Below, in pieces: positions 52,622-61,623 of a stretch of DNA of 64,000 nucleotides. Both the position numbers and the translations under genes were made by a program. Within the stretch, counting starts at the first letter, position 1. The number at the start of each line of letters is the position of its first letter. The DNA is from an uncultured delta proteobacterium (GTDB lineage Bacteria > Desulfobacterota > DSM-4660 > Desulfatiglandales > HGW-15). The stretch covers positions 387,735 through 451,734 of the forward strand of contig CAVUFY010000004.1 of assembly GCA_963740905.1 (NCBI GenBank). Direction: 5' to 3'. The notes below the pieces were generated by a model, which worked only from the letters and a program-made list of their open reading frames with translations, was not told the origin of the DNA and searched no databases.

Positions 52622-53719
52622 ATGGAAAAGGCGAAAAAGTTTATCCTGCTGGGAAGTATTTTTTTGGCCTTCGGATTCATGGTATACTCAATTGTCCTTG
52701 GCCAGGCGCTGGCGGCGTCGCAGATACGGCTTAAGTTCAGCAACTTCTTTCCACCCGCATCCGATCTGAGCAAAATCTGCGAAGCGTTCATCTCGGACAT
52801 CGAAAAACGTACGGACGGCAGGGTAAAGATCGCCTATTATCCGGGTGGCTCACTGCTCAAAGCTCCTGCCATGTTCATGGGCGTGGTGGAGGGAGCGTCC
52901 GACATAGGCTTTGCCTCCATTATGTATACTCCGGGCAGGATGCCCGTTACCGAAGTCCTCGGGCTGCCTTTAGGCTACCCCAATCCGTGGGTAGGTGGTC
53001 ATGTGGCCAACGACTTTTATAAGCAATTCAAGCCCAAAGAGTGGGACCCGGTTCATGTTCTCTGGATGCATTCCTCCGGCATCACCGTCCTGATGACCAA
53101 GCAGCCGGTGCACAAAATGCAAGACCTTAAGGGGCTGATCATAAGGGCTCCCGGCCGCATCGGTGAGGCAATCAAGGCGTTAGGCGGGACTCCTGCGCCT
53201 ACGGAGATGGGGGAAGTGTACGATGCGTTGTCCAAGGGCGTTATTCACGGCGTCTACACCGGCGTTATGGGACTTAAGGACTGGCGCTTCGCCGAGGTTG
53301 CCAAGCACACGACCCTATGCTGGGAGGTGAGCAGCATCTATCCATTCTACGTGGTGATGAACAAGAAGAGCTGGGACAAATTGCCCCAGGACATCAAAGA
53401 GATTTTCAATAAGGCCGCTGACGAGTATGAAGAGAAATTCGCGATGGTTTGGAACGGAGCGGAGGTCCGGGGCAAAGAATTCGGCGCGAAGTCTGGGGTG
53501 GAGTTCATCAAATTGTCCCGTGAAGAAGCAGCCTCGTGGCGGCAGGCGGTTAAGCCCGTGATAGCGGGATATGAAAAGGAAATGGTTGGCAAAGGGTTCG
53601 CAAACAAAGATGTGGCAAATTGGGTCGATTTTATAGAAGGAAAAATCGATTACTGGACGAAAAAACAGGCACAACTTGGGATCAAGTCTGCAACCGGTCC
53701 TGAAGAGGTCCTAAAGTGA
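52622..53719 (+). CDS. dctP: TRAP transporter substrate-binding protein
   Basis: Signal/anchor sequence, then IRLKFSNFFPPAS... in a DctP-family pattern. It starts 21 nt after the UPF0182 stop and is preceded by GAGGAGG. Confidence 0.85.
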   Translation: MEKAKKFILLGSIFLAFGFMVYSIVLGQALAASQIRLKFSNFFPPASDLSKICEAFISDIEKRTDGRVKIAYYPGGSLLKAPAMFMGVVEGASDIGFASIMYTPGRMPVTEVLGLPLGYPNPWVGGHVANDFYKQFKPKEWDPVHVLWMHSSGITVLMTKQPVHKMQDLKGLIIRAPGRIGEAIKALGGTPAPTEMGEVYDALSKGVIHGVYTGVMGLKDWRFAEVAKHTTLCWEVSSIYPFYVVMNKKSWDKLPQDIKEIFNKAADEYEEKFAMVWNGAEVRGKEFGAKSGVEFIKLSREEAASWRQAVKPVIAGYEKEMVGKGFANKDVANWVDFIEGKIDYWTKKQAQLGIKSATGPEEVLK

Positions 53720-53767
53720 AGCTCGCAGGCCGGAGGCAAATCCGAAAACGGAGGAAAGGTTCCCGCG

Positions 53768-54262
53768 ATGCTGGAGGAGATTAAGAGGATCAACCGTTCG
53801 GTCAGCAAGTTGTTTGAACGGGTGGGGATCGTTGCGCTCCTGTTCATGATCGGCGTGACGTGCGTGGATGCATTTGGAATTAAGGTTCTTCGCAGGCCTA
53901 TCACGGGCGCAATCGACCTGGTAATGCTTTGTCAGGTGGTGGGGATTGCGTTTGCCATCGCCTCGACACAAATCTTGGGCAAGCATGTCCGGGTCGATTT
54001 CTTTATCGACAGGCTGTCGGCAACGATGCAAGCGGTCGTCGATAGCGTTGTCTACTTTCTCCTGTTCCTCTTCTTCTGTTTGGTCGTATGGCGGTTATAC
54101 GTCCTCGCTCATTCCTTTCAGATAGCGAGGGAGGTTACCGCGACCTTGTATGTACCGCTTTATTTCTTCGTTTACGGAGCCGCTCTTGCCTGCGTTCCCG
54201 TGGGACTGGTTTTTCTGATCGAATTTTTGAGTTGCCTTGTGAGGGTGGTGGAAAGAAGATGA
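53768..54262 (+). CDS. dctQ: TRAP transporter small permease
   Basis: 164 aa with 4 TM segments, in a DctQ-like pattern (...GVTCVDAFGIKVLRRPITGA...). Confidence 0.8.
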   Translation: MLEEIKRINRSVSKLFERVGIVALLFMIGVTCVDAFGIKVLRRPITGAIDLVMLCQVVGIAFAIASTQILGKHVRVDFFIDRLSATMQAVVDSVVYFLLFLFFCLVVWRLYVLAHSFQIAREVTATLYVPLYFFVYGAALACVPVGLVFLIEFLSCLVRVVERR

Positions 54263-55563
54263 GCTTCATTACCATAGGGTTCATTGGAATCGGCATTCTG
54301 CTCCTCGTATTTTTCCTCAGGATGCCGATTTCCTTCGCCATGTTGCTGGTAGGATTCGCAGGCCTCGCCTGCCTGGACGGCTCGCAGGCAGCATTCTACA
54401 CCCTTTCCAGGGACATCTTCGACGATTTGTCTTCGTACCCTTTGACCGTCATCACCACCTTCATCTTCATGGGCACATTTGCATTCGCATCCGGAATGGG
54501 CACAAGACTTTACAAGGCGGCCTACATTTGGGTGGGACAATTGGGCGGCGGTCTCGTGATAGCGACCGTCCTCGCATGCGCCGGTTTCAGCGCCATCTGC
54601 GGGTCGAGCCCGGCCGCAGCAGCTACCATGGGAAAAATCGCGCTTCCGGAGATGAAGAAGTATCGGTATCTGGACACCCTGTCTACCGGCACGGTTGCCG
54701 CGGCCGGCTCTCTCGGTATTCTTATCCCACCCAGCACCGTATTCATCCTGTACGGTATACTGGTTGAAGAATCCATAGGGAAGCTGTTTGCCGCCGGGAT
54801 ATTGCCGGGCCTGCTGCTCACGTGTTTTTTTGTGGCGACAGTTGTATTTGTTTGTCGCCGCAATCCTGCTCTCGCTCCATCCGGTCCGCGCACCGGATGG
54901 AAGGAGAAGGTCAGGGCGATTCCGGCGGTTATTGAACCCCTCATTCTATTTGCATTCGTGGTCGGGGGTTTGCTAAACGGCTGGTTCAGTCCCACTCAGG
55001 CAGGGGCCATAGGTGCCGCGGGCGCCTTGATCATCGGTTTGGTCAGGAAAGACATTAACTGGAAAAGATTTGTCGAGGCCTGCGAAGACGGAATACGAAC
55101 ATCTTGCATGGTTATGTTTCTTATCACAGGGGGTACCGTGTTCGGCCATTTTCTGGCAGTGACAACCATACCCTTCGTGCTCGTGGATTGGGTAAAGGGC
55201 ATTCCCTGGCCCCCGGCAGCCATTGTGGGGCTTATAGCGTTTATGTTCTTCATAGGAGGCATGTTCATCTCCTCAATGGCTCTGCTCATGTTGCTCGTCC
55301 CTATCGTTCTCCCCGTTCTGGTCTATCTCAAAGTCGACCTGATCTGGTTTGGGGTTATACTCGTGCTCCTCACCGAGGCAGGTGTTATTACTCCTCCAGT
55401 TGGAGTGAATGTGTTTGTGGTTAAAGGCATTGCAGTGGATACCCCTCTCGAAAATATCTTCAAGGGAACACTTCCTTTTCTCGCCGCGATCGCTGCGTTG
55501 GTCATCATTCTGATATTTTTTCCTCACCTTGCGACCTTCTTGCCCTCGATCGTTGCTCGTTAG
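54259..55563 (+). CDS. dctM: TRAP transporter large permease (intact)
   Basis: MSFITIGFIGIGILLL...CGSSPAAAATMGKIALPEMKKY...ILIPPS... ATGA overlaps the dctQ stop. The track ORF start at 54088 is an upstream extension. Confidence 0.88.
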   Translation: MSFITIGFIGIGILLLVFFLRMPISFAMLLVGFAGLACLDGSQAAFYTLSRDIFDDLSSYPLTVITTFIFMGTFAFASGMGTRLYKAAYIWVGQLGGGLVIATVLACAGFSAICGSSPAAAATMGKIALPEMKKYRYLDTLSTGTVAAAGSLGILIPPSTVFILYGILVEESIGKLFAAGILPGLLLTCFFVATVVFVCRRNPALAPSGPRTGWKEKVRAIPAVIEPLILFAFVVGGLLNGWFSPTQAGAIGAAGALIIGLVRKDINWKRFVEACEDGIRTSCMVMFLITGGTVFGHFLAVTTIPFVLVDWVKGIPWPPAAIVGLIAFMFFIGGMFISSMALLMLLVPIVLPVLVYLKVDLIWFGVILVLLTEAGVITPPVGVNVFVVKGIAVDTPLENIFKGTLPFLAAIAALVIILIFFPHLATFLPSIVAR

Positions 55564-55745
55564 CGAAGCCGTCAAGTTTGAAGAGTATCCTGGGGCGGGG
55601 GAAAACGAGAGTCAAAGAAAACGACGAGGGGAGAGGCTTGCGGGAGAGCCGGGAAGAATGTCCAAGAAGAGCATGCCTGAGAATCGAGTATCCAAACTTC
55701 TCCACCGACCAAGACAAGGAATTTTCTCCCCGCGGCGGTCATTGA

Positions 55746-55934
55746 TTATTGTTCTTTTATTACTTCAAATTCATTCTCGTATAAGGCAAGTCCTCTCTCC
55801 GATTCTTGATCTTCGATTTCCACCCTGTAGCATCTTCCTTTGTAGAAATCGAAAGGCTCTTCTCGTATCACTCCGATTTTCCCGATCCACATGGGATCTA
55901 TTGTTGGAACACTTAATATTCGCACTTTGACCAT
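55746..55934 (-). CDS. Hypothetical small protein (62 aa)
   Basis: Clean ORF with AAGGAG 5 nt upstream of the ATG. No family recognised. Confidence 0.45.
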   Translation of the reverse strand: MVKVRILSVPTIDPMWIGKIGVIREEPFDFYKGRCYRVEIEDQESERGLALYENEFEVIKEQ

Positions 55935-56374
55935 TTCAACTCCTTGCCCTCTTCTTCGCGAGAGCGCGAAGATCGATCAAATTTTCCCCGCAAAATCGAG
56001 GATTCTGAAGCGGTGACTTTCCATAATGGCCGCTTCACTTTTGTGTAAAGATGTCCCAACTGGAGATTTATAGGTTTTGCCTAAGGCCGGGTTTTTCTAT
56101 CCGAATATGCAAATTGTGTGCTAGAAGCTCTCGCACATAAAAGGTAACAATTATGAGAGGTTATTCCCTTGCCTGGCGAGACAAATATGGCGCCTCCTGT
56201 AAAACAACGTGACAGGATGGAAAAAAAGGCGACACCTGAGCCGGTTGGTCACTTTCGGGAGTGCGGGTGATTTCAATCATCGTTTTCTGAGAAGCCGGGC
56301 CATAGACGAGGGCTTGGAGACGTCGAAATCTGAACCTGATTCATCTTGAAACCCTTCAGCGTAAAATGAGAGAC

Positions 56375-56450
56375 ATGTCAAGCAAACCAAGCATATTGGC
56401 CATTGTTTGATAAATCACAGGTATCAGATTAGCAAGAATTTGCTTGACAT
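56375..56450. repeat. Perfect 12-bp inverted repeat (ATGTCAAGCAAA ... TTTGCTTGACAT) with a 52-nt spacer
   Basis: Left arm 56375-56386, right arm 56439-56450. The right arm contains a TTGACA -35-like hexamer (56444-56449), with TAAAAC 16 nt downstream. The repeat lies about 230 nt upstream of the reductase-like operon. Confidence 0.8.
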
Positions 56451-56682
56451 CTTTTGAACAACAACTAAAACTGAACCAGATTCAATTTCGATGTCAACTC
56501 ATTTTCCGGGAGGGGACAAGACAAATATCAGACATGGCGGCGGTACCAGGTGAAGAAGTAGCGGAGAGAGAGTATTGATTGAATCGTTTGAAACCATCAG
56601 AAAGCGACGGTGAATTCAAGAGCGATAGAGACAATCCGTATGTTCCGGCTCCGAACACCGGGATACCGGATAGGAGGTTGAA

Positions 56683-57999
56683 ATGTCGTATACCTTAAAA
56701 ATTTGGAACGACTTCAAGAATTACCAGAGCACTTGTTACAGGAACTACGCGTATGTTTCGGAAGGTCTTCGCTGCATGGGCTCTACTTGGAGCGTGCTGG
56801 CCCCCCTTAAGGGGTTAGGGGAAGATGTATACCTGCTGGGCGGCGAGCCCCACGCCGCGTCAACCGCCGGAACATTCCCTGAAGAGGCCCGCGAGGATAT
56901 TTCGGCGGCTGAAATCGCAGGCTTGGGGTTTCACGCTTGCAGTTACCTGAAGCTGTTCGTAGGGGAAGTGGTCCGCGACAAGATGGGGATCACAGATGGA
57001 ACAATCAAGGAGGGATATCCCAAACCGAATTTGATCTGGACTACGCATTTGTGCAATCTGCATTCAAAGTGGTACCAGGAAGTTTCGAGGCGCCTAGGCG
57101 GCATACCCATGTACCCTATAGATATGATCGGCGGGGGGAATGCGGAGAAAGATCCTAAGATCGTAAAATACGTGTGCGACCAGATGGAGGAGGGAATACG
57201 CTGGCTCGAGAGAGTCACCGGCAGGGATTTTTCGGATGAGTTGTTCATCAAGGCAGCCAGAAATGAGATCAAGGTGCTGGTGCTATGGGGCAATATATGT
57301 GCACTGAACATGCATGCCCCCGCGCCGTTGGATGAGCGTCGGCTCATAGCTCTATTTCCGCCGGCCATGGTGGACAGGACGACGGATGAAGCGGTGCGGA
57401 TATATGAGGCATTGCTGAAAGAAGTGCGATACATGGTCGAAACCGGACAGAGTGTGGTTCCGGATCAACGCTACAGAATCGTCTATTTTGGACTGGCACA
57501 TACTTATGGCCACCCGGAAATCGCGAGAATCCTCAGGGACGCAGGAGCCGAGATTGTGGCCTCAGTCTATACTTTTGGCACGGCCGGCAATTTCAAGGGA
57601 TTTGTGAACGGAAAATGGTCATGGGAACCCATCAACCCTGCATGGGTCGACGAACTGGATTTCTCCACCAGAAGAGATGCCTTGTCTGCGCTGGCCAAAA
57701 TAGCGTTGGGCTGGCCGACCTGGCAAGGGGTAAGGTCCTATTGGGCACTGGAACAAATGGCCAGGGCGATGGTGACAGAATATGGGGCAGACGGCCTTTT
57801 GTTGGCCCCTACCCGTACGTGTGAAACGGACTTCAGGAACGGCTACATAGCGATGCAGCGCATCTTTAAGAACCAAATTCCGACCGTTGAATACGATACC
57901 GAAACCGTAGATGTCCGAAAAATGGATTTGCCCGGTTCCAAACGAAAAACAGAGTTATTCGTGCATCTCATGGAAGCGCACAAGAAAGGAAGGGCATGA
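56683..57999 (+). CDS. 2-hydroxyacyl-CoA dehydratase / benzoyl-CoA reductase B-type subunit (BcrB/BzdO-like)
   Basis: 438 aa with an HGD-D-family pattern (conserved Cys context ...THLCNLHSKWY..., ...APTRTCE...). First gene of a tightly packed four-gene set. Confidence 0.7.
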   Translation: MSYTLKIWNDFKNYQSTCYRNYAYVSEGLRCMGSTWSVLAPLKGLGEDVYLLGGEPHAASTAGTFPEEAREDISAAEIAGLGFHACSYLKLFVGEVVRDKMGITDGTIKEGYPKPNLIWTTHLCNLHSKWYQEVSRRLGGIPMYPIDMIGGGNAEKDPKIVKYVCDQMEEGIRWLERVTGRDFSDELFIKAARNEIKVLVLWGNICALNMHAPAPLDERRLIALFPPAMVDRTTDEAVRIYEALLKEVRYMVETGQSVVPDQRYRIVYFGLAHTYGHPEIARILRDAGAEIVASVYTFGTAGNFKGFVNGKWSWEPINPAWVDELDFSTRRDALSALAKIALGWPTWQGVRSYWALEQMARAMVTEYGADGLLLAPTRTCETDFRNGYIAMQRIFKNQIPTVEYDTETVDVRKMDLPGSKRKTELFVHLMEAHKKGRA

Positions 58000-58005
58000 G
58001 AAGAG

Positions 58006-59169
58006 ATGAACAGAAGTTCTGAATCAATAATCGAACATTTTCGCCACGTCACTGAGAATACGCATGAATACGCTAAATCCCTCCAGGAGAAAGGACGTCT
58101 CTTGGCTGGATATATGTGCACCCATGTGCCGGAGGAAATTCTATACGCAGCCGGAATCATACCGCTGAGAATTCTCAGCGCCCATGTTTCGCAAGCCATG
58201 ACAAGGAGCTACATTCACGAAACCTACTGTTCCTTTTCGCATGATTGCGCATACCAAGGACTGCAGCACAACTATGATTACCTGGACTTGATCGTGCATA
58301 GCAGCAGTTGCATACACATGGCTGAAGCGTTTAACGTTTGGGTCAGGTTTGCAGGCTTCCAGGAAAAAAGCTTCCTGATCCCCTACCCTCATATCATCCA
58401 TGCCAAACCTGCGGCCGGGTTTATGGCAGAGTCTTTTGCAGAGTTTAAACAATTCATTGAAAAGTTTGCGAAGACGTCCATAACGGATGATGACATCGAA
58501 CGGGCGATTAAGGTGTACAATCACACCAGAAGACTCCTCAAGCGACTCTGGGGGTTCCTGAAGCTGGACAGCTCCCCTATAACGGGGTCGGAAGTCGCGA
58601 CGGTCACTTTGGCTTCCCAAGTCATGGAAAAGCAAGAGTGCAATCAAATGCTGGAGCAACTGGTTCAGCAAATAGAAAACGCGCCCGGCAAAGCGTCCCC
58701 AGGGGTAAGGCTGATGGTGACGGGAGGCGCGTGTGACGACTTGCGGATTTTCGATTTAATTGAACATCTGAACCACAATACAAGCCTGATCTTCATTGAT
58801 TCTTGTACGGCGGCCAGGTACTTCTGGTTTGAAGTGCCTGAGGATCGCCCTGATAAGCTGGGAGCGATCGCTGAGGGACTCATCAATAGAATTCCGTGTC
58901 CTGCAAAGGACAATGTTCCCGGCACCGGGGAGAAAAAACGGTTCAGGTTCATACAACAGTTCATCGAGGACTTCAAGCCGGATGGAATAATATTTCTCTA
59001 CCAGCGATTTTGCAGCCCCCAATCCATGGACGTTGTGGCACTGAAGCCCATCGTGAACATGTTGGGAATCCCGTGGACCGAGCTCGAACTTGATACGACG
59101 GTGCCAATCGTTCAGTTCGGAACACAGCTGGAAGCCCTCGTAGAAATCATAAAGCAGGTGGCGCCATGA
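58006..59169 (+). CDS. 2-hydroxyacyl-CoA dehydratase / benzoyl-CoA reductase C-type subunit (BcrC/BzdN-like)
   Basis: 387 aa with LLAGYMCTHVPEEILYAAGIIPLRI... and ...FLYQRFCSPQ..., typical of HGD-D family subunits. Confidence 0.7.
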   Translation: MNRSSESIIEHFRHVTENTHEYAKSLQEKGRLLAGYMCTHVPEEILYAAGIIPLRILSAHVSQAMTRSYIHETYCSFSHDCAYQGLQHNYDYLDLIVHSSSCIHMAEAFNVWVRFAGFQEKSFLIPYPHIIHAKPAAGFMAESFAEFKQFIEKFAKTSITDDDIERAIKVYNHTRRLLKRLWGFLKLDSSPITGSEVATVTLASQVMEKQECNQMLEQLVQQIENAPGKASPGVRLMVTGGACDDLRIFDLIEHLNHNTSLIFIDSCTAARYFWFEVPEDRPDKLGAIAEGLINRIPCPAKDNVPGTGEKKRFRFIQQFIEDFKPDGIIFLYQRFCSPQSMDVVALKPIVNMLGIPWTELELDTTVPIVQFGTQLEALVEIIKQVAP

Positions 59170-59954
59170 ATAAGGGAAAAGTAATTGCCGGACTGGATGC
59201 AGGTCATATAAATACCAAGGCCATAATCATGGAGGGGCGGGAAATCCTTGGGTACCGCACGGTCCCCACAGGGTTTGATGTCGCCGCTGCGGCCCAAACA
59301 GCACTCAATGAAGCTTCGGAGAGTGCGGGAATCTCCCGCAGTGAACTGGGCGGAATCACGGCTACTGGAATCTTTAAAGATACGACCAACGGACCGTCCC
59401 TGAACATAAGCAAGACCGTCCCCGAATACGTGGCGGATGCTAAAGGCGCTTTGTTCCTCAATAAGAATTCCAGAACAGTCATCGACATCGGCGGCAATAT
59501 ACATAAAGTTGTCCAGTATGACGAAAGCGCGAATCTTCTGGATGTTGTTCAGAATGATAAGTGTGCCGACGGTTTGGGCATTTTTTACACCAACATGGCC
59601 AAGGCCATAGGATTAAACGAGCGGGAAATGTCCGATTTGGCACTTCAATCCACCAAGACTCTATCAGTCGCCATTCAGTGCGCACTATCCGCTGAATCAG
59701 ATGCGATTGATTTGATCTGCCAAGGCAGTGACATCGCGGATGTGGCGGATGCTGTCTTGAGATTCATAGTTGAACGGGTTGCGGATATGTGCACCTATAT
59801 GCCTCTTACCAGAGAGATCGTGGTAGCGGGAGGATTAGCCAAATCCGAAGCGCTTGTTAAGCACCTTGCGAGTCTGATAAAACAAGACCTGAGCACAGTG
59901 GACCTTCCGGAATACGTATGTGCCATAGGTGCGGCCATTTGTGATGGGGGTTGA
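59166..59954 (+). CDS. BadF/BadG/BcrA/BcrD-type ATPase subunit (BcrD/BzdP-like)
   Basis: Acetate/sugar-kinase-fold ATPase with GLDAGHINTKAII, cluster-ligand contexts NDKCADGLG and CALSAESD, and VVAGGLAKS. ATGA overlaps the upstream stop. Confidence 0.75.
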   Translation: MNKGKVIAGLDAGHINTKAIIMEGREILGYRTVPTGFDVAAAAQTALNEASESAGISRSELGGITATGIFKDTTNGPSLNISKTVPEYVADAKGALFLNKNSRTVIDIGGNIHKVVQYDESANLLDVVQNDKCADGLGIFYTNMAKAIGLNEREMSDLALQSTKTLSVAIQCALSAESDAIDLICQGSDIADVADAVLRFIVERVADMCTYMPLTREIVVAGGLAKSEALVKHLASLIKQDLSTVDLPEYVCAIGAAICDGG

Positions 59955-59956
59955 AA

Positions 59957-60808
59957 ATGAGCGGGTGGGTTTCAATGAAAGAACAGCTGGATTGGAAAAA
60001 GGCTGAGGTTATAGCAGCCGGTGTGGATGTTGGAGCCGTGAGTTCCAAAGCCGTGTTGCTGTTGGATGGGCAGCCATATGCCTTTTCTCAAGTCAGAACT
60101 CGAACGCCCAAAGAGTCTGCTTTAGGCGCCATGAACACGGCATTAGCGAAAGCTCATTTGAAGCTGGATAATATCCATTGCCTGGTGGCGACCGGCCGCG
60201 GCAGGTCCCAGGTTCCGTTCGCTCGCGAAACCGTGTCTGAAATCGCGTGCGCCGCCGCAGGGGCGGTACACATTTGGGGTCCATCGGTGCGAACAGTGCT
60301 GGATGCTGGAGGTCAAAGTTGCAGGGTCATTCACTGCACCGGCAAAGGCAGAGCAACCGCTTTCCTTTGGAATGACAAATGTGCCGCGGGCATTGGACGC
60401 TCGATAGAAGCATTTTCCGGGCTGATTAAGAAAGATGTAAATGAGATTGGAATCATAGCTCTTCAGACTGATCAGTTCCCGAGGCTGAGTGACTTTTGCG
60501 CCGTGTATGCTCAATCCGAGGCTCTGGACTTGATTCGAAGCAAGATCCCCCTGGAACAAGCAATAGCCGCTTACCACTATGCCATGGCTAAGAGAATCAG
60601 CACATTGGCGGCCAGATCAGGAGTGAAAAGGGATTTTGTAATTATTGGAGGGCTGAGCAAGAACCCAGGAATAAGATCTCGCGTTGAAAGCATCCTGAAG
60701 GTAAACCCGTTGGTTCCTGAACCTGAATGGGATCCTGCCTTGACCACGGCTTTAGGTGCTGCCCTATTTGCAGATAGTCTCTATAGGAGGCAAGCGCCTG
60801 ACAAGTAA
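59957..60808 (+). CDS. BadF/BadG/BcrA/BcrD-type ATPase subunit (BcrA/BzdQ-like)
   Basis: GVDVGAVSSKAVLL, WNDKCAAGIGRSIE, FCAVYAQSEA and IIGGLSKNPG. It could instead start at TTG 59951, overlapping the upstream stop. Confidence 0.78.
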   Translation: MSGWVSMKEQLDWKKAEVIAAGVDVGAVSSKAVLLLDGQPYAFSQVRTRTPKESALGAMNTALAKAHLKLDNIHCLVATGRGRSQVPFARETVSEIACAAAGAVHIWGPSVRTVLDAGGQSCRVIHCTGKGRATAFLWNDKCAAGIGRSIEAFSGLIKKDVNEIGIIALQTDQFPRLSDFCAVYAQSEALDLIRSKIPLEQAIAAYHYAMAKRISTLAARSGVKRDFVIIGGLSKNPGIRSRVESILKVNPLVPEPEWDPALTTALGAALFADSLYRRQAPDK

Positions 60809-60840
60809 ACCATAGCGCTGGCAAACACTCCACCCTTATC

Positions 60841-61440
60841 ATGTCCAAAAAGAAGATCGTCAGAAGAGAATCCATCATCCAGGCAGCCATTGAGGTCTTC
60901 AGCAAGAAAGATTTCAAGAGCGCAAGTATTTCGGAAATAGCTCAAAAGGCGGGTGTGGCTGATGGGACGATCTATCAGTATTTCAAAAGCAAGGAAGACC
61001 TTTTTTTCTCCATCCCCATAGAAAAGACCAACGAATTTCGGAGTCAGCTCGAATTACATCTCGAGGGGATTTCGGGCGCTTTTAACAAAATCAGGAAATT
61101 CGTATGGTTTTTTCTGTATTTCTTCAAGACGAATCCCGAGTACGGACGGATACTGATGCTCGAAATGCGGGTGAGCAAGACTTTTGCTAAAACGGAAACG
61201 TATGGATTTCTGAAGCAATCGGTCAGCCAGGTGATGAATATCATAGAAGAAGGCCGGAACGAAGGCGTCATTCGGCAGGATACAGACGTCTACGTCCTGC
61301 GCCATTTGATTCTGGGCACCCTTGAGCACATGGTCTCCCGCTGGCTGCTCAAGGAAGAGAAGTACAACCTTCTCGAGCATCATCAGGAGGTGAGCCAAAT
61401 ACTAATCGACGGCTTGAGGGCGACCGCCCCAATCGGTTGA
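60841..61440 (+). CDS. TetR/AcrR-family transcriptional regulator
   Basis: N-terminal HTH FKSASISEIAQKAGVADGTIYQYFKSKEDLF plus a helical ligand domain. Confidence 0.9.
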   Translation: MSKKKIVRRESIIQAAIEVFSKKDFKSASISEIAQKAGVADGTIYQYFKSKEDLFFSIPIEKTNEFRSQLELHLEGISGAFNKIRKFVWFFLYFFKTNPEYGRILMLEMRVSKTFAKTETYGFLKQSVSQVMNIIEEGRNEGVIRQDTDVYVLRHLILGTLEHMVSRWLLKEEKYNLLEHHQEVSQILIDGLRATAPIG

Positions 61441-61623
61441 CGTTTGACCTATTCCCATTCACGCTACCGCTATTGGGGTCGCCGATCCGCACCCGCAGGT
61501 ACGTCGCACCACGAAGGATGAAGGCAACACCGCTCGCAGATCCCGGCTTGACGGGGAGATAGGCGTTTTTGAGCAACATGCTGGTAATTTCAGATGCGCC
61601 GGAGATTCTCTTTGAGGGCCAAA

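What the first reader, a model, noticed from the sequence alone, without database searches (positions are those of the whole stretch)
56683..61440. Class-I (ATP-dependent) benzoyl-CoA-reductase-like four-subunit enzyme with TetR regulator in an otherwise strict-anaerobe-looking context
Seen in sequence:
- Two HGD-D-family subunits (438 and 387 aa) are followed by two different BadF/BadG/BcrA/BcrD ATPase genes (262 and 283 aa). Each has the Cys contexts used for the bridging cluster.
- All are coupled by overlaps of 4 nt or gaps of 6 nt or less. A TetR gene follows 32 nt later.

Established knowledge:
- 2-hydroxyacyl-CoA dehydratases use a homodimeric activator encoded by a single gene.
- Two distinct ATPase subunits next to the alpha/beta pair is the arrangement of class-I aryl-CoA reductases (Bcr/Bzd type). 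This includes the tetrahydronaphthoyl-CoA reductases described from sulfate-reducing naphthalene degraders.

Inference:
- This is an ATP-driven dearomatising or ring-reducing enzyme for an unknown acyl-CoA.
- No CoA ligase, ferredoxin or downstream hydratase genes are adjacent.
- The nearest candidate uptake system is the intact TRAP transporter upstream.
Basis: partly seen in the sequence, partly recalled or inferred. Interest (0 to 1): 0.6.

Follow-up and report, generated by a model that had tools for sequence, protein, structure and literature searches.

The report
Divergent ATP-driven aromatic-ring reductase operon
This is an intact four-gene, ATP-powered iron-sulfur enzyme derived from benzoyl-CoA reductase, with its own repressor; its reshaped substrate pocket suggests it reduces a substituted aromatic acid that nobody has yet identified.

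Summary
Window 56683-60808 encodes two HGD-D catalytic subunits and two different BcrAD/BadFG ATPases. The junctions are tight, and a TetR gene follows 32 nt later.

Each of the four proteins is the counterpart of one Bzd subunit: BzdO, BzdN, BzdP and BzdQ. They are not dehydratase subunits. Sequence, trees and a confident structure model (TM 0.90 to BzdO) agree.

All FeS ligands and the catalytic Glu and His of BzdO are kept. Residues that contact the benzoyl ring and thioester are replaced, and the replacements are the same in every orthologue examined (A45T, Q274A, L302T, G382T, L383D). All four proteins also score about half the NCBIfam Bzd cut-offs.

The family is one tight cluster (77-93% identity) on a long stem. 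It was found in 37 species genomes, is patchy within its order, and also occurs in Dehalococcoidia and Dethiobacter. All four genes are under purifying selection.

Neighbours at other loci are aromatic-acid genes: CoA ligases, transporters, and Hcr-like and BamB-like enzymes. A conserved palindrome, TGAAT-N3-ATTCA, probably serves the FadR-like TetR.

Best reading: an ATP-dependent reductase for a polar-substituted aryl-CoA. The substrate is unknown. It is a new variant of a known kind.

The parts
56683..57999 (+). Catalytic subunit, BzdO-like (438 aa). It should carry the active-site [4Fe-4S]-OH2 cluster and the acyl-CoA channel.
   Evidence: Scores 208 bits on TIGR03191, below the 449 cut-off. 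Matches PDB 8s02_A at E 9e-59. The AlphaFold model has pLDDT 88.7 and TM 0.90 to 8s02_A. Cys95, Cys128, Cys380, Glu65, His131, Ser44, Trp46, Tyr97 and Tyr298 are kept. A45T, Q274A, L302T, G382T and L383D are the same in all 8 clade sequences tabulated.
58006..59169 (+). Electron-transfer subunit, BzdN-like (387 aa). It is predicted to hold a double-cubane [8Fe-9S] cluster.
   Evidence: Scores 205 bits on TIGR03190, below the 454 cut-off. Matches 8s02_B at E 1.5e-58. All six ligand cysteines (36, 73, 100, 263, 293, 327) and Arg53, Arg267 and Arg290 are kept; H330Q and S239G differ (ligand list from PMC11971306).
59166..59954 (+). ATPase subunit, BzdP-like (262 aa). It is the more divergent partner of the heterodimer.
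   Evidence: BcrAD_BadFG at E 1.3e-30. Sister to BzdP in the ATPase tree, support 83, stem 1.57. Both cluster cysteines are kept. The phosphate loops are atypical (DAGHINTK, GGNIHK), as they are in BzdP and MbdP. dN/dS is 0.10-0.24.
59951..60808 (+). ATPase subunit, BzdQ-like (285 aa from TTG; more likely 283 aa from the ATG at 59957).
   Evidence: Scores 236 bits on TIGR03192, below the 380 cut-off. Sister to true BzdQ with support 99. Has canonical DVGAVSSK and GGQS motifs and both cluster cysteines. dN/dS is 0.09-0.20.
60841..61440 (+). FadR/YsiA-type TetR repressor, probably responsive to an acyl-CoA.
   Evidence: TetR_N plus TetR_C_4. Scores 143 bits on NCBIfam Bacillus FadR, below the 200 cut-off. 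Best PDB matches are acyl-CoA-binding FadR structures 5gpa and 3whb, E about 1e-27; MbdR (4uds) matches at 1.7e-10. A homologous TetR lies next to the cluster in 14-17 of 38 loci.
56472..56484 (.). Candidate operator TGAACCAGATTCA, which fits TGAAT-N3-ATTCA with one mismatch.
   Evidence: The palindrome, allowing one mismatch, is present within 350 nt upstream of the O gene in 23 of 35 orthologous loci. Shuffled sequences gave 2.3 loci on average and at most 6.
56444..56471 (+). Promoter-like TTGACA-N16-TAAAAC directly before the operator. It would give a leader of roughly 200 nt.
   Evidence: Read from the sequence. CTTGACATCT is shared by 8 orthologous upstream regions. The consensus scan did not flag it. 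No Rfam family matches the leader.
56375..56450 (.). Perfect 12-nt inverted repeat, ATGTCAAGCAAA / TTTGCTTGACAT, with a 52-nt spacer. Its right arm holds the -35-like hexamer.
   Evidence: Confirmed. Its role is unknown, and it was not recovered as conserved among orthologues.
52622..55563 (+). TRAP transporter (DctP, DctQ, DctM). A link to the operon is possible but unproven.
   Evidence: Pfam and NCBIfam assignments. DctP-family genes lie near 4 other orthologous clusters, but the one checked is only 42% identical to this DctP. A 1.1-kb gap separates the transporter from the operon, and it directly follows UPF0182.

Best explanation
The four genes encode a functional, ATP-dependent class I aryl-CoA reductase. 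It arose from the Bzd type (BzdNOPQ) as a complete four-subunit unit and has since changed its substrate.

Proposed mechanism, by analogy with the solved BzdNO structure:
1. Reduced ferredoxin loads the [4Fe-4S] cluster that bridges the P-like and Q-like ATPase heterodimer.
2. ATP hydrolysis drives that electron to the [8Fe-9S] double cubane of the N-like subunit.
3. The electron passes on to the aqua-[4Fe-4S] cluster of the O-like subunit.
4. The cluster-bound water, with the conserved Glu and His, adds hydrogen to the ring of a bound aryl-CoA.

The catalytic machinery is intact, but the residues that pack against the benzoyl ring and bind the thioester oxygen are replaced by smaller or polar ones: Thr, Thr, Asp and Ala. 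The substrate is therefore most likely a polar-substituted aromatic acyl-CoA, for example a hydroxy- or amino-benzoyl-CoA type, rather than benzoyl-CoA. Whether the product is a substituted dienoyl-CoA, or benzoyl-CoA after the substituent is eliminated, is open.

Expression is probably repressed by the adjacent FadR-like TetR at the TGAAT-N3-ATTCA operator beside the promoter, and relieved by an acyl-CoA.

The four-gene module moves horizontally and tends to land in aromatic-acid catabolic neighbourhoods.

What is shown: homology, cofactor ligands, pocket changes, selection, distribution, and the conserved palindrome. What is inferred: activity, substrate class, and the regulator's effector.
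For: One-to-one correspondence with the Bzd subunits:
- Best NCBIfam hits are bzdO, bzdN and bzdQ.
- PDB BzdO and BzdN match at E about 1e-58, far better than HadBC or MbdON.
- The O tree nests the clade among true BzdO sequences on a stem of 1.09.
- In the ATPase tree D is sister to BzdQ (support 99) and C is sister to BzdP (support 83).
- The structure model reaches TM 0.90 to 8s02_A, against 0.78 for MbdO and 0.76 for HadB.

Cofactor and catalytic residues:
- They are complete in O and N across the orthologues tabulated. Residue roles come from PMC11971306.

Changed pocket:
- A45T, Q274A, L302T, G382T and L383D are identical in all 8 clade sequences tabulated.
- Only position 45 varies widely among the 9 Bzd-type sequences compared. 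Positions 274, 302, 382 and 383 are the same in most of them, with single exceptions.

Constraint:
- dN/dS is 0.06-0.24 for all four genes, with dS 0.5 to above 1.

A distinct family:
- It forms a single 50%-identity cluster. The next relatives are at or below 35% identity.

Context at orthologous loci:
- PaaK-type ligases at 7 loci and FadD-type ligases at 7.
- ABC, TRAP and MFS transporters.
- Hcr-like XDH-family enzymes at 6 loci.
- A BamB-like AOR plus an SDR at 3 loci.
- Phenylphosphate-synthase-like genes.

Host capacity:
- The genome has a true Oah/BamA, at 544 bits against a 464 cut-off.
- It also has a BamB-like gene.

Regulator and operator.
Against: - No activity, expression or substrate data exist.
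- The pocket argument rests on alignment to one crystal structure and on the roles its authors assign. No ligand was modelled.
- No dedicated downstream hydratase, dehydrogenase or hydrolase genes accompany the module. Characterised methylbenzoyl-CoA clusters, as I recall them, do carry such genes. This fits a product that is already a central intermediate, which could simply be the benzoyl-CoA-derived dienoyl-CoA.
- The PaaK-type ligase found next to several orthologous clusters is common in genomes that lack the reductase: 54 of 121 genomes against 7 of 121. It gives no specificity clue.
- The P-like ATPase has non-canonical phosphate loops, so the ATP stoichiometry may differ.
- The clade sits on a long branch. 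Its exact sister, a haloarchaeal BzdO-like protein, may be a long-branch artefact.
Confidence: 0.6

Rival explanations
1. It is simply a second benzoyl-CoA reductase, a divergent Bzd-type isoenzyme. It would reduce benzoyl-CoA to the 1,5-dienoyl-CoA, which the genome's central Dch/Had/Oah pathway then processes.
For: - It nests within the Bzd-type group.
- All catalytic residues and cluster ligands are kept.
- No dedicated downstream genes lie at any locus. The genome has a true Oah.
- The canonical bzdNO genes are missing from this genome while bzdPQ and the ferredoxin remain, so this enzyme could be their replacement.
Against: - All three subunits with a curated Bzd model (O, N, Q) score about half the equivalog cut-offs: 208 of 449, 205 of 454 and 236 of 380. 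Operons in the same order that reach or nearly reach them score 443-565, 436-454 and 408-417.
- The ring and thioester contacts Q274, L302 and G382 are kept in 8, 7 and all 9 of the 9 Bzd-type sequences compared (L383 in 6 of 9), but are replaced in this clade.
- There is a long stem branch followed by strong constraint.
- Genome G098 carries both a near-canonical Bzd-type operon and a decayed copy of this clade.
Confidence: 0.2
2. It reduces the remaining benzene ring of a partly reduced bicyclic acyl-CoA. [quoted passage not shown]
For: - ThnBCDE are described as homologous to bzdNOPQ (PMC12016498).
- The host belongs to Desulfatiglandales; I recall that NaphS2 belongs to that order too.
- One orthologous locus has an OYE-type flavoenzyme nearby.
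- PaaK-type ligases activate naphthoate.
Against: - The thn reductase genes lie inside a 22-gene operon with beta-oxidation enzymes and a ferredoxin. None of that is present at any of 38 loci.
- No hit labelled NaphS2 or N47 is among the 37 species that carry the clade.
- The pocket became more polar (Thr, Asp), not larger and more hydrophobic.
Confidence: 0.07
3. It is a 2-hydroxyacyl-CoA dehydratase (HAD/Hgd/Fld/Lcd type) with a duplicated activator.
For: It shares Pfam family HGD-D and the activase domain TIGR00241.
Against: - HadB and HadC match 30 to 47 orders of magnitude worse than BzdO and BzdN.
- In the tree HadB and the genome's own HAD-like pair (contig C13) are far away.
- The N subunit has all six double-cubane ligands.
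- His131 of BzdO is kept, whereas HadB has Val there in my alignment; the BzdNO paper gives Ala.
- There are two distinct, separately conserved ATPases.
Confidence: 0.02

Closest known systems
BzdNOPQ, the Bzd-type class I benzoyl-CoA reductase of Aromatoleum sp. CIB (BzdNO structures 8S02, 8S1T, 8S2R; PMC11971306)
   Same: - Four subunits that correspond one to one.
- The fold matches at TM 0.90.
- Three Cys plus Glu65 and His131 around an aqua-[4Fe-4S] in O.
- Six Cys for the [8Fe-9S] in N.
- Two different ATPases, each with the two cysteines that should bind the bridging cluster.
   Different: - Only about 30-35% identity, and about half the curated family cut-offs.
- Gene order is O-N-P-Q instead of N-O-P-Q.
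- No ferredoxin gene (BzdM) in the operon.
- Pocket residues are changed: A45T, Q274A, L302T, G382T, L383D with a one-residue insertion. In N, H330Q and S239G.
- The regulator is a FadR-like TetR, not (as I recall) BzdR.
MbdONQP, the 3-methylbenzoyl-CoA reductase (MBR type; PDB 9G87, 9GAI) with its TetR-family regulator MbdR (PDB 4UDS)
   Same: It is a precedent for a class I reductase specialised for a substituted benzoyl-CoA. It has O-N gene order, and as I recall it is controlled by a TetR-family repressor that senses the aryl-CoA.
   Different: - The sequences are distant: MbdO E 8e-8, TM 0.78; MbdR E 1.7e-10.
- As I recall them, the mbd clusters carry their own downstream ring-cleavage genes; this module does not.
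[quoted passage not shown]
   Same: A Bzd-like, ATP-dependent class I reductase in strictly anaerobic Desulfobacterota that acts on a non-benzoyl aryl-CoA.
   Different: It is embedded in the 22-gene thn operon with beta-oxidation genes and a ferredoxin, and none of that is here. Sequence orthology could not be tested.
HadBC plus HadI, and HgdAB plus HgdC (2-hydroxyacyl-CoA dehydratases)
   Same: The same superfamily and overall fold, and an ATP-driven electron injector.
   Different: - They have a single homodimeric activator.
- They have no double cubane.
- In my alignment they lack the His131 equivalent.
- Sequence and structure are much more distant.
Bacillus FadR (YsiA), an acyl-CoA-responsive TetR repressor (PDB 3WHB, 5GPA)
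   Same: A full-length match at E about 1e-27, and the TetR_C_4 acyl-CoA-binding domain. From memory, its operator also has TGAAT / ATTCA half-sites.
   Different: It scores below the NCBIfam FadR cut-off (143 against 200). It controls an aryl-CoA reductase operon rather than fatty-acid beta-oxidation. The effector is unknown.

Membership tests
Bzd-type class I benzoyl-CoA reductase (BzdNOPQ) | Two HGD-D catalytic subunits plus two non-identical BcrAD/BadFG ATPases, each the counterpart of one Bzd subunit | tested here: met
Bzd-type class I benzoyl-CoA reductase (BzdNOPQ) | O subunit: Cys95, Cys128 and Cys380 as ligands of an aqua-[4Fe-4S], plus Glu65 and His131 | tested here: met
   All are conserved in the window protein and in the 7 other clade sequences tabulated.
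Bzd-type class I benzoyl-CoA reductase (BzdNOPQ) | N subunit: six Cys (36, 73, 100, 263, 293, 327) for the [8Fe-9S] double cubane | tested here: met
Bzd-type class I benzoyl-CoA reductase (BzdNOPQ) | Scores above the curated equivalog cut-offs of TIGR03191, TIGR03190 and TIGR03192 | tested here: not met
   The scores are 208 of 449, 205 of 454 and 236 of 380. Bzd operons of the same order score 443-565, 436-454 and 408-417.
Bzd-type class I benzoyl-CoA reductase (BzdNOPQ) | Benzoyl-ring and thioester contacts: Trp46, Tyr97, Tyr298, Gln274, Leu302, Leu383 | tested here: not met
   Trp46, Tyr97 and Tyr298 are kept. Gln274 becomes Ala, Leu302 becomes Thr and Leu383 becomes Asp, the same in all 8 clade sequences tabulated.
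Bzd-type class I benzoyl-CoA reductase (BzdNOPQ) | Operon order N-O-P-Q followed by a ferredoxin | tested here: not met
   The order here is O-N-P-Q with no ferredoxin. The canonical order with a 96-aa ferredoxin is seen in locus L019 and in the contig C20 remnant.
Bzd-type class I benzoyl-CoA reductase (BzdNOPQ) | ATP-dependent reduction of benzoyl-CoA to cyclohexa-1,5-diene-1-carbonyl-CoA | not testable with these tools
   This needs enzyme assays.
2-hydroxyacyl-CoA dehydratase (HadBC, HgdAB, FldBC) | A single homodimeric activator, and catalytic subunits closest to HadB/HadC | tested here: not met
   There are two distinct ATPases. HadB and HadC match at E 2e-12 and 3e-27, against about 1e-58 for BzdO and BzdN. 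TM is 0.76 against 0.90.
Tetrahydronaphthoyl-CoA reductase (ThnBCDE) | Location in the thn operon with beta-oxidation-like genes, the ferredoxin ThnF and ThnR | tested here: not met
   None of these occur at 38 loci. The operon is described.
Tetrahydronaphthoyl-CoA reductase (ThnBCDE) | Sequence orthology to the N47 and NaphS2 ThnB-E proteins | not tested
   No Thn sequences were at hand. No record labelled NaphS2 or N47 is among the 37 species hits.
MBR-type class I reductase (MbdONQP, MbrCBAD) | Closest sequence and structure relatives are MbdO and MbdN | tested here: not met
   MbdO matches at E 8e-8 and MbdN at 4e-23. MbdO sits in a separate clade.
FadR/YsiA-type TetR repressor | TetR_N HTH domain plus the TetR_C_4 acyl-CoA-binding domain | tested here: met
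   The best PDB matches are FadR structures.
FadR/YsiA-type TetR repressor | Score above the NCBIfam NF053878 cut-off, and binding of long-chain acyl-CoA | tested here: not met
   The score is 142.8 against a cut-off of 200. The effector cannot be tested here.

The most novel reading that the evidence does not exclude
The enzyme may not be a ring-opening-pathway reductase at all. It could be an ATP-driven defunctionalising aryl-CoA reductase. It would add hydrogen at the substituted ring carbon of a hydroxy-, amino- or halo-benzoyl-CoA. The substituent would then leave, held by the new Asp and Thr next to cluster ligand Cys380, and the ring would re-aromatise to benzoyl-CoA.

This would be a dedicated, molybdenum-independent route to benzoyl-CoA. 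It would explain three observations:
- The module never carries downstream ring-cleavage genes.
- It travels alone.
- It lands beside ligases, transporters and Hcr-like genes.

The known precedents are only side activities: defluorination of 4-fluorobenzoyl-CoA (PMC4992971, title and abstract seen) and, as I recall, dechlorination of 3-chlorobenzoyl-CoA by ordinary class I reductases.
Probability: 0.2. Interest if true: 0.8.

Novelty: new variant of a known kind. Interest (0 to 1): 0.55.

Why it matters
Class I aryl-CoA reductases carry out a biological Birch reduction, and only a handful of substrate specificities are known: benzoyl-, 3- and 4-methylbenzoyl- and tetrahydronaphthoyl-CoA.

This clade is a clean natural experiment. 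The full catalytic apparatus is kept, five pocket positions are changed in the same way in every orthologue examined, constraint is very strong, and the module spreads horizontally among anaerobes of peat, soil, groundwater and digesters.

Finding its substrate would add a new reaction, or a new route to benzoyl-CoA, to anaerobic aromatic degradation. It would also give a structure-function handle on how the BzdO pocket sets specificity.

The FadR-like repressor and its conserved operator offer a cheap way to find the substrate, by screening aryl-CoAs for release of the repressor from DNA. They could also serve as a biosensor part.

Tried and rejected
- **A cognate ligase by co-occurrence.** The PaaK-type ligase adjacent in several orthologous loci is present in 54 of 121 genomes of the order. 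The reductase is in 7 of 121, and genomes without the reductase also carry the ligase. It is not a specific partner. The copy on contig C15 of this genome is only 66-68% identical.
- **A decayed ligase or regulator in the 1.1-kb gap upstream.** None was found by tblastn with all neighbour proteins and with the genome's own proteome.
- **A riboswitch in the leader.** No Rfam match at E up to 1.
- **4-Aminobenzoyl-CoA reductive deaminase.** I considered this because of the Asp in the pocket and the phenylphosphate-synthase-like and UbiD neighbours. Proteomics of Desulfatiglans anilini point to Hcr-like Mo enzymes for that step (PMC7500099). I kept it only as one member of the substituted-aryl-CoA class.
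- **My first taxonomic guess, Syntrophorhabdales.** Names on homologues suggested it, but it was wrong. The genome shares a family with a MAG labelled Desulfatiglandales.
- **The MbdONQP structure paper.** A literature search did not find it in the library.
- **Recent transfer as the reason for the 87-93% identity.** Rejected, because dS is 0.5 to above 1. The high identity reflects constraint.

Full report
**Observation.**
The five ORFs lie exactly where the finding puts them:
- A, 56683-57999, 438 aa
- B, 58006-59169, 387 aa
- C, 59166-59954, 262 aa
- TetR, 60841-61440, 199 aa

The junctions are a 6-nt gap, an ATGA overlap, a TTGA overlap (or a 2-nt gap) and a 32-nt gap. A GGAGG precedes gene A. 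Pfam gives HGD-D for A and B, BcrAD_BadFG for C and D, and TetR_N plus TetR_C_4 for the regulator. Both ATPases keep the two cysteines that align with the cysteines in the NDKC and C-x-x-F-AES contexts of HgdC and HadI; that these bind the cluster bridging the two ATPase subunits I recall from the HgdC literature.

**What the proteins are.**
- NCBIfam places A nearest bzdO (208 bits), B nearest bzdN (205) and D nearest bzdQ (236). All are far below the curated cut-offs of 449, 454 and 380.
- Against solved structures, A matches BzdO at 9e-59 and B matches BzdN at 1.5e-58. HadB and HadC match at 2e-12 and 3e-27, and MbdO and MbdN at 8e-8 and 4e-23.
- I built a tree of 116 O/alpha-type sequences. 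It used library representatives, true BzdO sequences from the same order, PDB chains transcribed from the HMMER alignments, and this genome's own paralogues. The query clade falls inside the Bzd-type group on a stem of 1.09 substitutions per site. HadB, MbdO and the genome's HAD-like and second Bcr-like paralogues lie far away.
- In the ATPase tree, D is sister to true BzdQ (support 99) and C is sister to BzdP (support 83, stem 1.57). The whole four-subunit unit therefore diverged together from a Bzd-type ancestor.
- An AlphaFold2 model of A (pLDDT 88.7, pTM 0.91) superposes best on BzdO 8s02_A at TM 0.90 and 2.6 Å. MbdO gives 0.78 and HadB 0.76.

**Active-site anatomy.**
I used the residue roles given for BzdNO in PMC11971306.
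- Kept in the O-like subunit: the three cluster cysteines (95, 128, 380), the catalytic Glu65 and His131, and Ser44, Trp46, Tyr97 and Tyr298.
- Changed in the O-like subunit: A45T, Q274A (a thioester-oxygen hydrogen-bond donor), L302T (packs on the ring face), G382T, and L383D with a one-residue insertion (the pocket wall next to ligand Cys380). These changes are identical in all 8 clade sequences tabulated. Among the 9 Bzd-type sequences compared, positions 274, 302, 382 and 383 are the same in most, with single exceptions; only position 45 varies widely.
- The N-like subunit keeps all six [8Fe-9S] ligands and the three arginines around the distal cubane. H330Q and S239G differ.
- The P-like ATPase has atypical phosphate loops (DAGHINTK, GGNIHK). 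So do BzdP and MbdP, so this marks the asymmetric partner rather than decay.
- All four genes are under purifying selection. dN/dS is 0.06-0.14 for O, 0.06-0.13 for N, 0.10-0.24 for C and 0.09-0.20 for D, with dS 0.5 to above 1.

**Family size and spread.**
- In the 1.84-billion-protein representative library the family collapses into one 50%-identity cluster. The next full-length relatives are at or below 35% identical.
- A scan of one genome per species found orthologues at 77-93% identity in 37 species. Most are Desulfatiglandales, Syntrophorhabdales and unclassified 'Deltaproteobacteria' MAGs from peat, soil, groundwater and digesters. Two Dehalococcoidia and a Dethiobacter also carry it.
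- In those three genomes the core is 84-87% identical to the window, while flanking genes are only 26-59% identical to their homologues in this genome. That argues for horizontal transfer.
- Within the host's order, only 7 of 121 sampled genomes have the module. The same-genus genome lacks it.
- In genome G098 the copy is decayed: N is truncated and the ATPases are gone.
- The host genome (5.29 Mb, 23 contigs) shares a family with a MAG labelled Desulfatiglandales.

**Context.**
- In the window, the operon stands alone between a TRAP transporter and an HD-domain gene.
- Across 38 orthologous loci only the four genes are constant. The FadR-like TetR is adjacent in 14-17 loci.
- Recurrent neighbours are PaaK-type ligases (7 loci), FadD-type CoA ligases (7), a DMSOR-type Mo oxidoreductase (7), Hcr-like XDH-family enzymes (6), DctP (5), ABC transporters, a BamB-like AOR with an SDR (3), MmgE/PrpD, and phenylphosphate-synthase-like and UbiD genes.
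- No dienoyl-CoA hydratase, Had or Oah paralogue and no ferredoxin travels with the module.
- The PaaK-type ligase is not specific to it. It occurs in 54 of 121 genomes of the order.
- The host has a bona fide Oah/BamA (544 bits, cut-off 464) and a BamB-like gene 80% identical to the one beside the cluster in other genomes. Benzoyl-CoA can therefore be handled elsewhere.

**Regulation.**
- The TetR matches the acyl-CoA-binding FadR structures best (5gpa and 3whb, about 1e-27). It also matches MbdR (4uds, 1.7e-10), which as I recall is the aryl-CoA-sensing repressor of the mbd cluster.
- A 13-bp palindrome, TGAAT-N3-ATTCA with at most one mismatch, lies within 350 nt upstream of the O gene in 23 of 35 orthologous loci, often in two or three copies. 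Shuffled sequences gave 2.3 loci on average.
- The window's copy is at 56472-56484. It directly follows a promoter-like TTGACA-N16-TAAAAC, whose -35 context is shared by eight loci.
- The perfect 12-nt inverted repeat that another first-stage note reported is real, but I did not find it conserved.
- No Rfam family matches the leader.

**Interpretation.**
- Shown: this is an intact, selected module derived from the Bzd type. It has every cofactor ligand and catalytic residue, a consistently remodelled and more polar substrate pocket, its own repressor and operator, and a horizontally mobile, patchy distribution in aromatic-acid catabolic neighbourhoods.
- Inferred: it performs ATP-dependent reduction of a polar-substituted aryl-CoA other than benzoyl-CoA, and an acyl-CoA relieves repression.
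- The lack of downstream genes is compatible with three outcomes: a product that the central pathway accepts, reductive elimination of the substituent to give benzoyl-CoA (the novel case), or the enzyme being just a benzoyl-CoA reductase isoenzyme (the main rival).
- The dehydratase reading is effectively excluded. The tetrahydronaphthoyl-CoA reading is not supported by context.

**Earlier notes of this scan.**
One follow-up on a Dethiobacteria genome that shares many words with A reached a similar reading. I treated it as a lead. I confirmed independently that a Dethiobacter MAG carries the clade, and I derived the pocket changes myself.

**Limits.**
- PDB reference chains in the trees are partial sequences transcribed from alignments.
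- The large tree used the quick LG+G4 search, and the clade is a long branch.
- Operator statistics used mononucleotide shuffles.
- No Thn, BcrB or BadE sequences were available for the tree.

Noticed in passing
own genome, contig C20:68351-72233 (minus strand), outside the window: This looks like a remnant of a canonical bzd operon. It holds a GNAT gene, then a 985-nt gap where bzdN and bzdO should be, with no remnants detected. After that come an intact bzdP (68% identical to the genome G044 copy), a bzdQ (77%; 436 bits on TIGR03192, above the 380 cut-off) and a 96-aa ferredoxin (66%). An orphan ATPase module with its ferredoxin may serve another catalytic pair in this genome.
   Followed up: partly
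own genome, contig C4:342156-346901 (about 100 kb upstream of the operon, outside the window): A second four-gene cluster in the order ATPase, N-like, O-like, ATPase. Its best hits are the double-cubane, HadB and Bzd models, all well below cut-off. It lies next to an AMP-dependent ligase at C4:339047-340633. The genome also has a HAD-like pair with one activase (contig C13), a DCCP-like gene with an activase (contig C18), and three large proteins (about 1000-1500 aa) with activase-like regions.
   Followed up: partly
window 61493-61592: A 70-90-nt element just after the TetR stop codon. It recurs at 85-94% identity at six or more other places in the genome (contigs C20, C6, C13, C3, C9, C12). 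It looks like a REP- or MITE-like intergenic repeat.
   Followed up: partly
loci L018-L022 (genomes G068, G044, G095, G021, G098 of the same order): Bzd-type N-O-P-Q operons with a trailing ferredoxin occur in strictly anaerobic Desulfatiglandales-order MAGs. In the two operons scored, BzdO reaches 565 and 443 bits (cut-off 449), BzdN 454 and 436, and BzdQ 417 and 408. Several of these genomes are small, 1.7-2.5 Mb.
   Followed up: partly
locus L013 (G098:C1:559673 onwards): The orthologous cluster is decayed in this complete genome. O is intact (92% identical), N is cut to 293 aa, both ATPases are absent, and unrelated genes follow on the other strand. The PaaK-type ligase there is also a fragment.
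   Followed up: no
window 55742-55935 (minus strand): A small ORF of about 63 aa with no recognised family. It lies in the 1.1-kb gap between the TRAP genes and the operon. The rest of the gap has no detectable gene remnant.
   Followed up: no
loci L049, L051, L065: In three 'Deltaproteobacteria'/Syntrophorhabdaceae MAGs the module sits in a conserved island. On one side is an Hcr-like XDH-family enzyme (FAD, 2Fe-2S and Mo subunits). On the other are an SDR and then BamB/BamC-like genes.
   Followed up: partly
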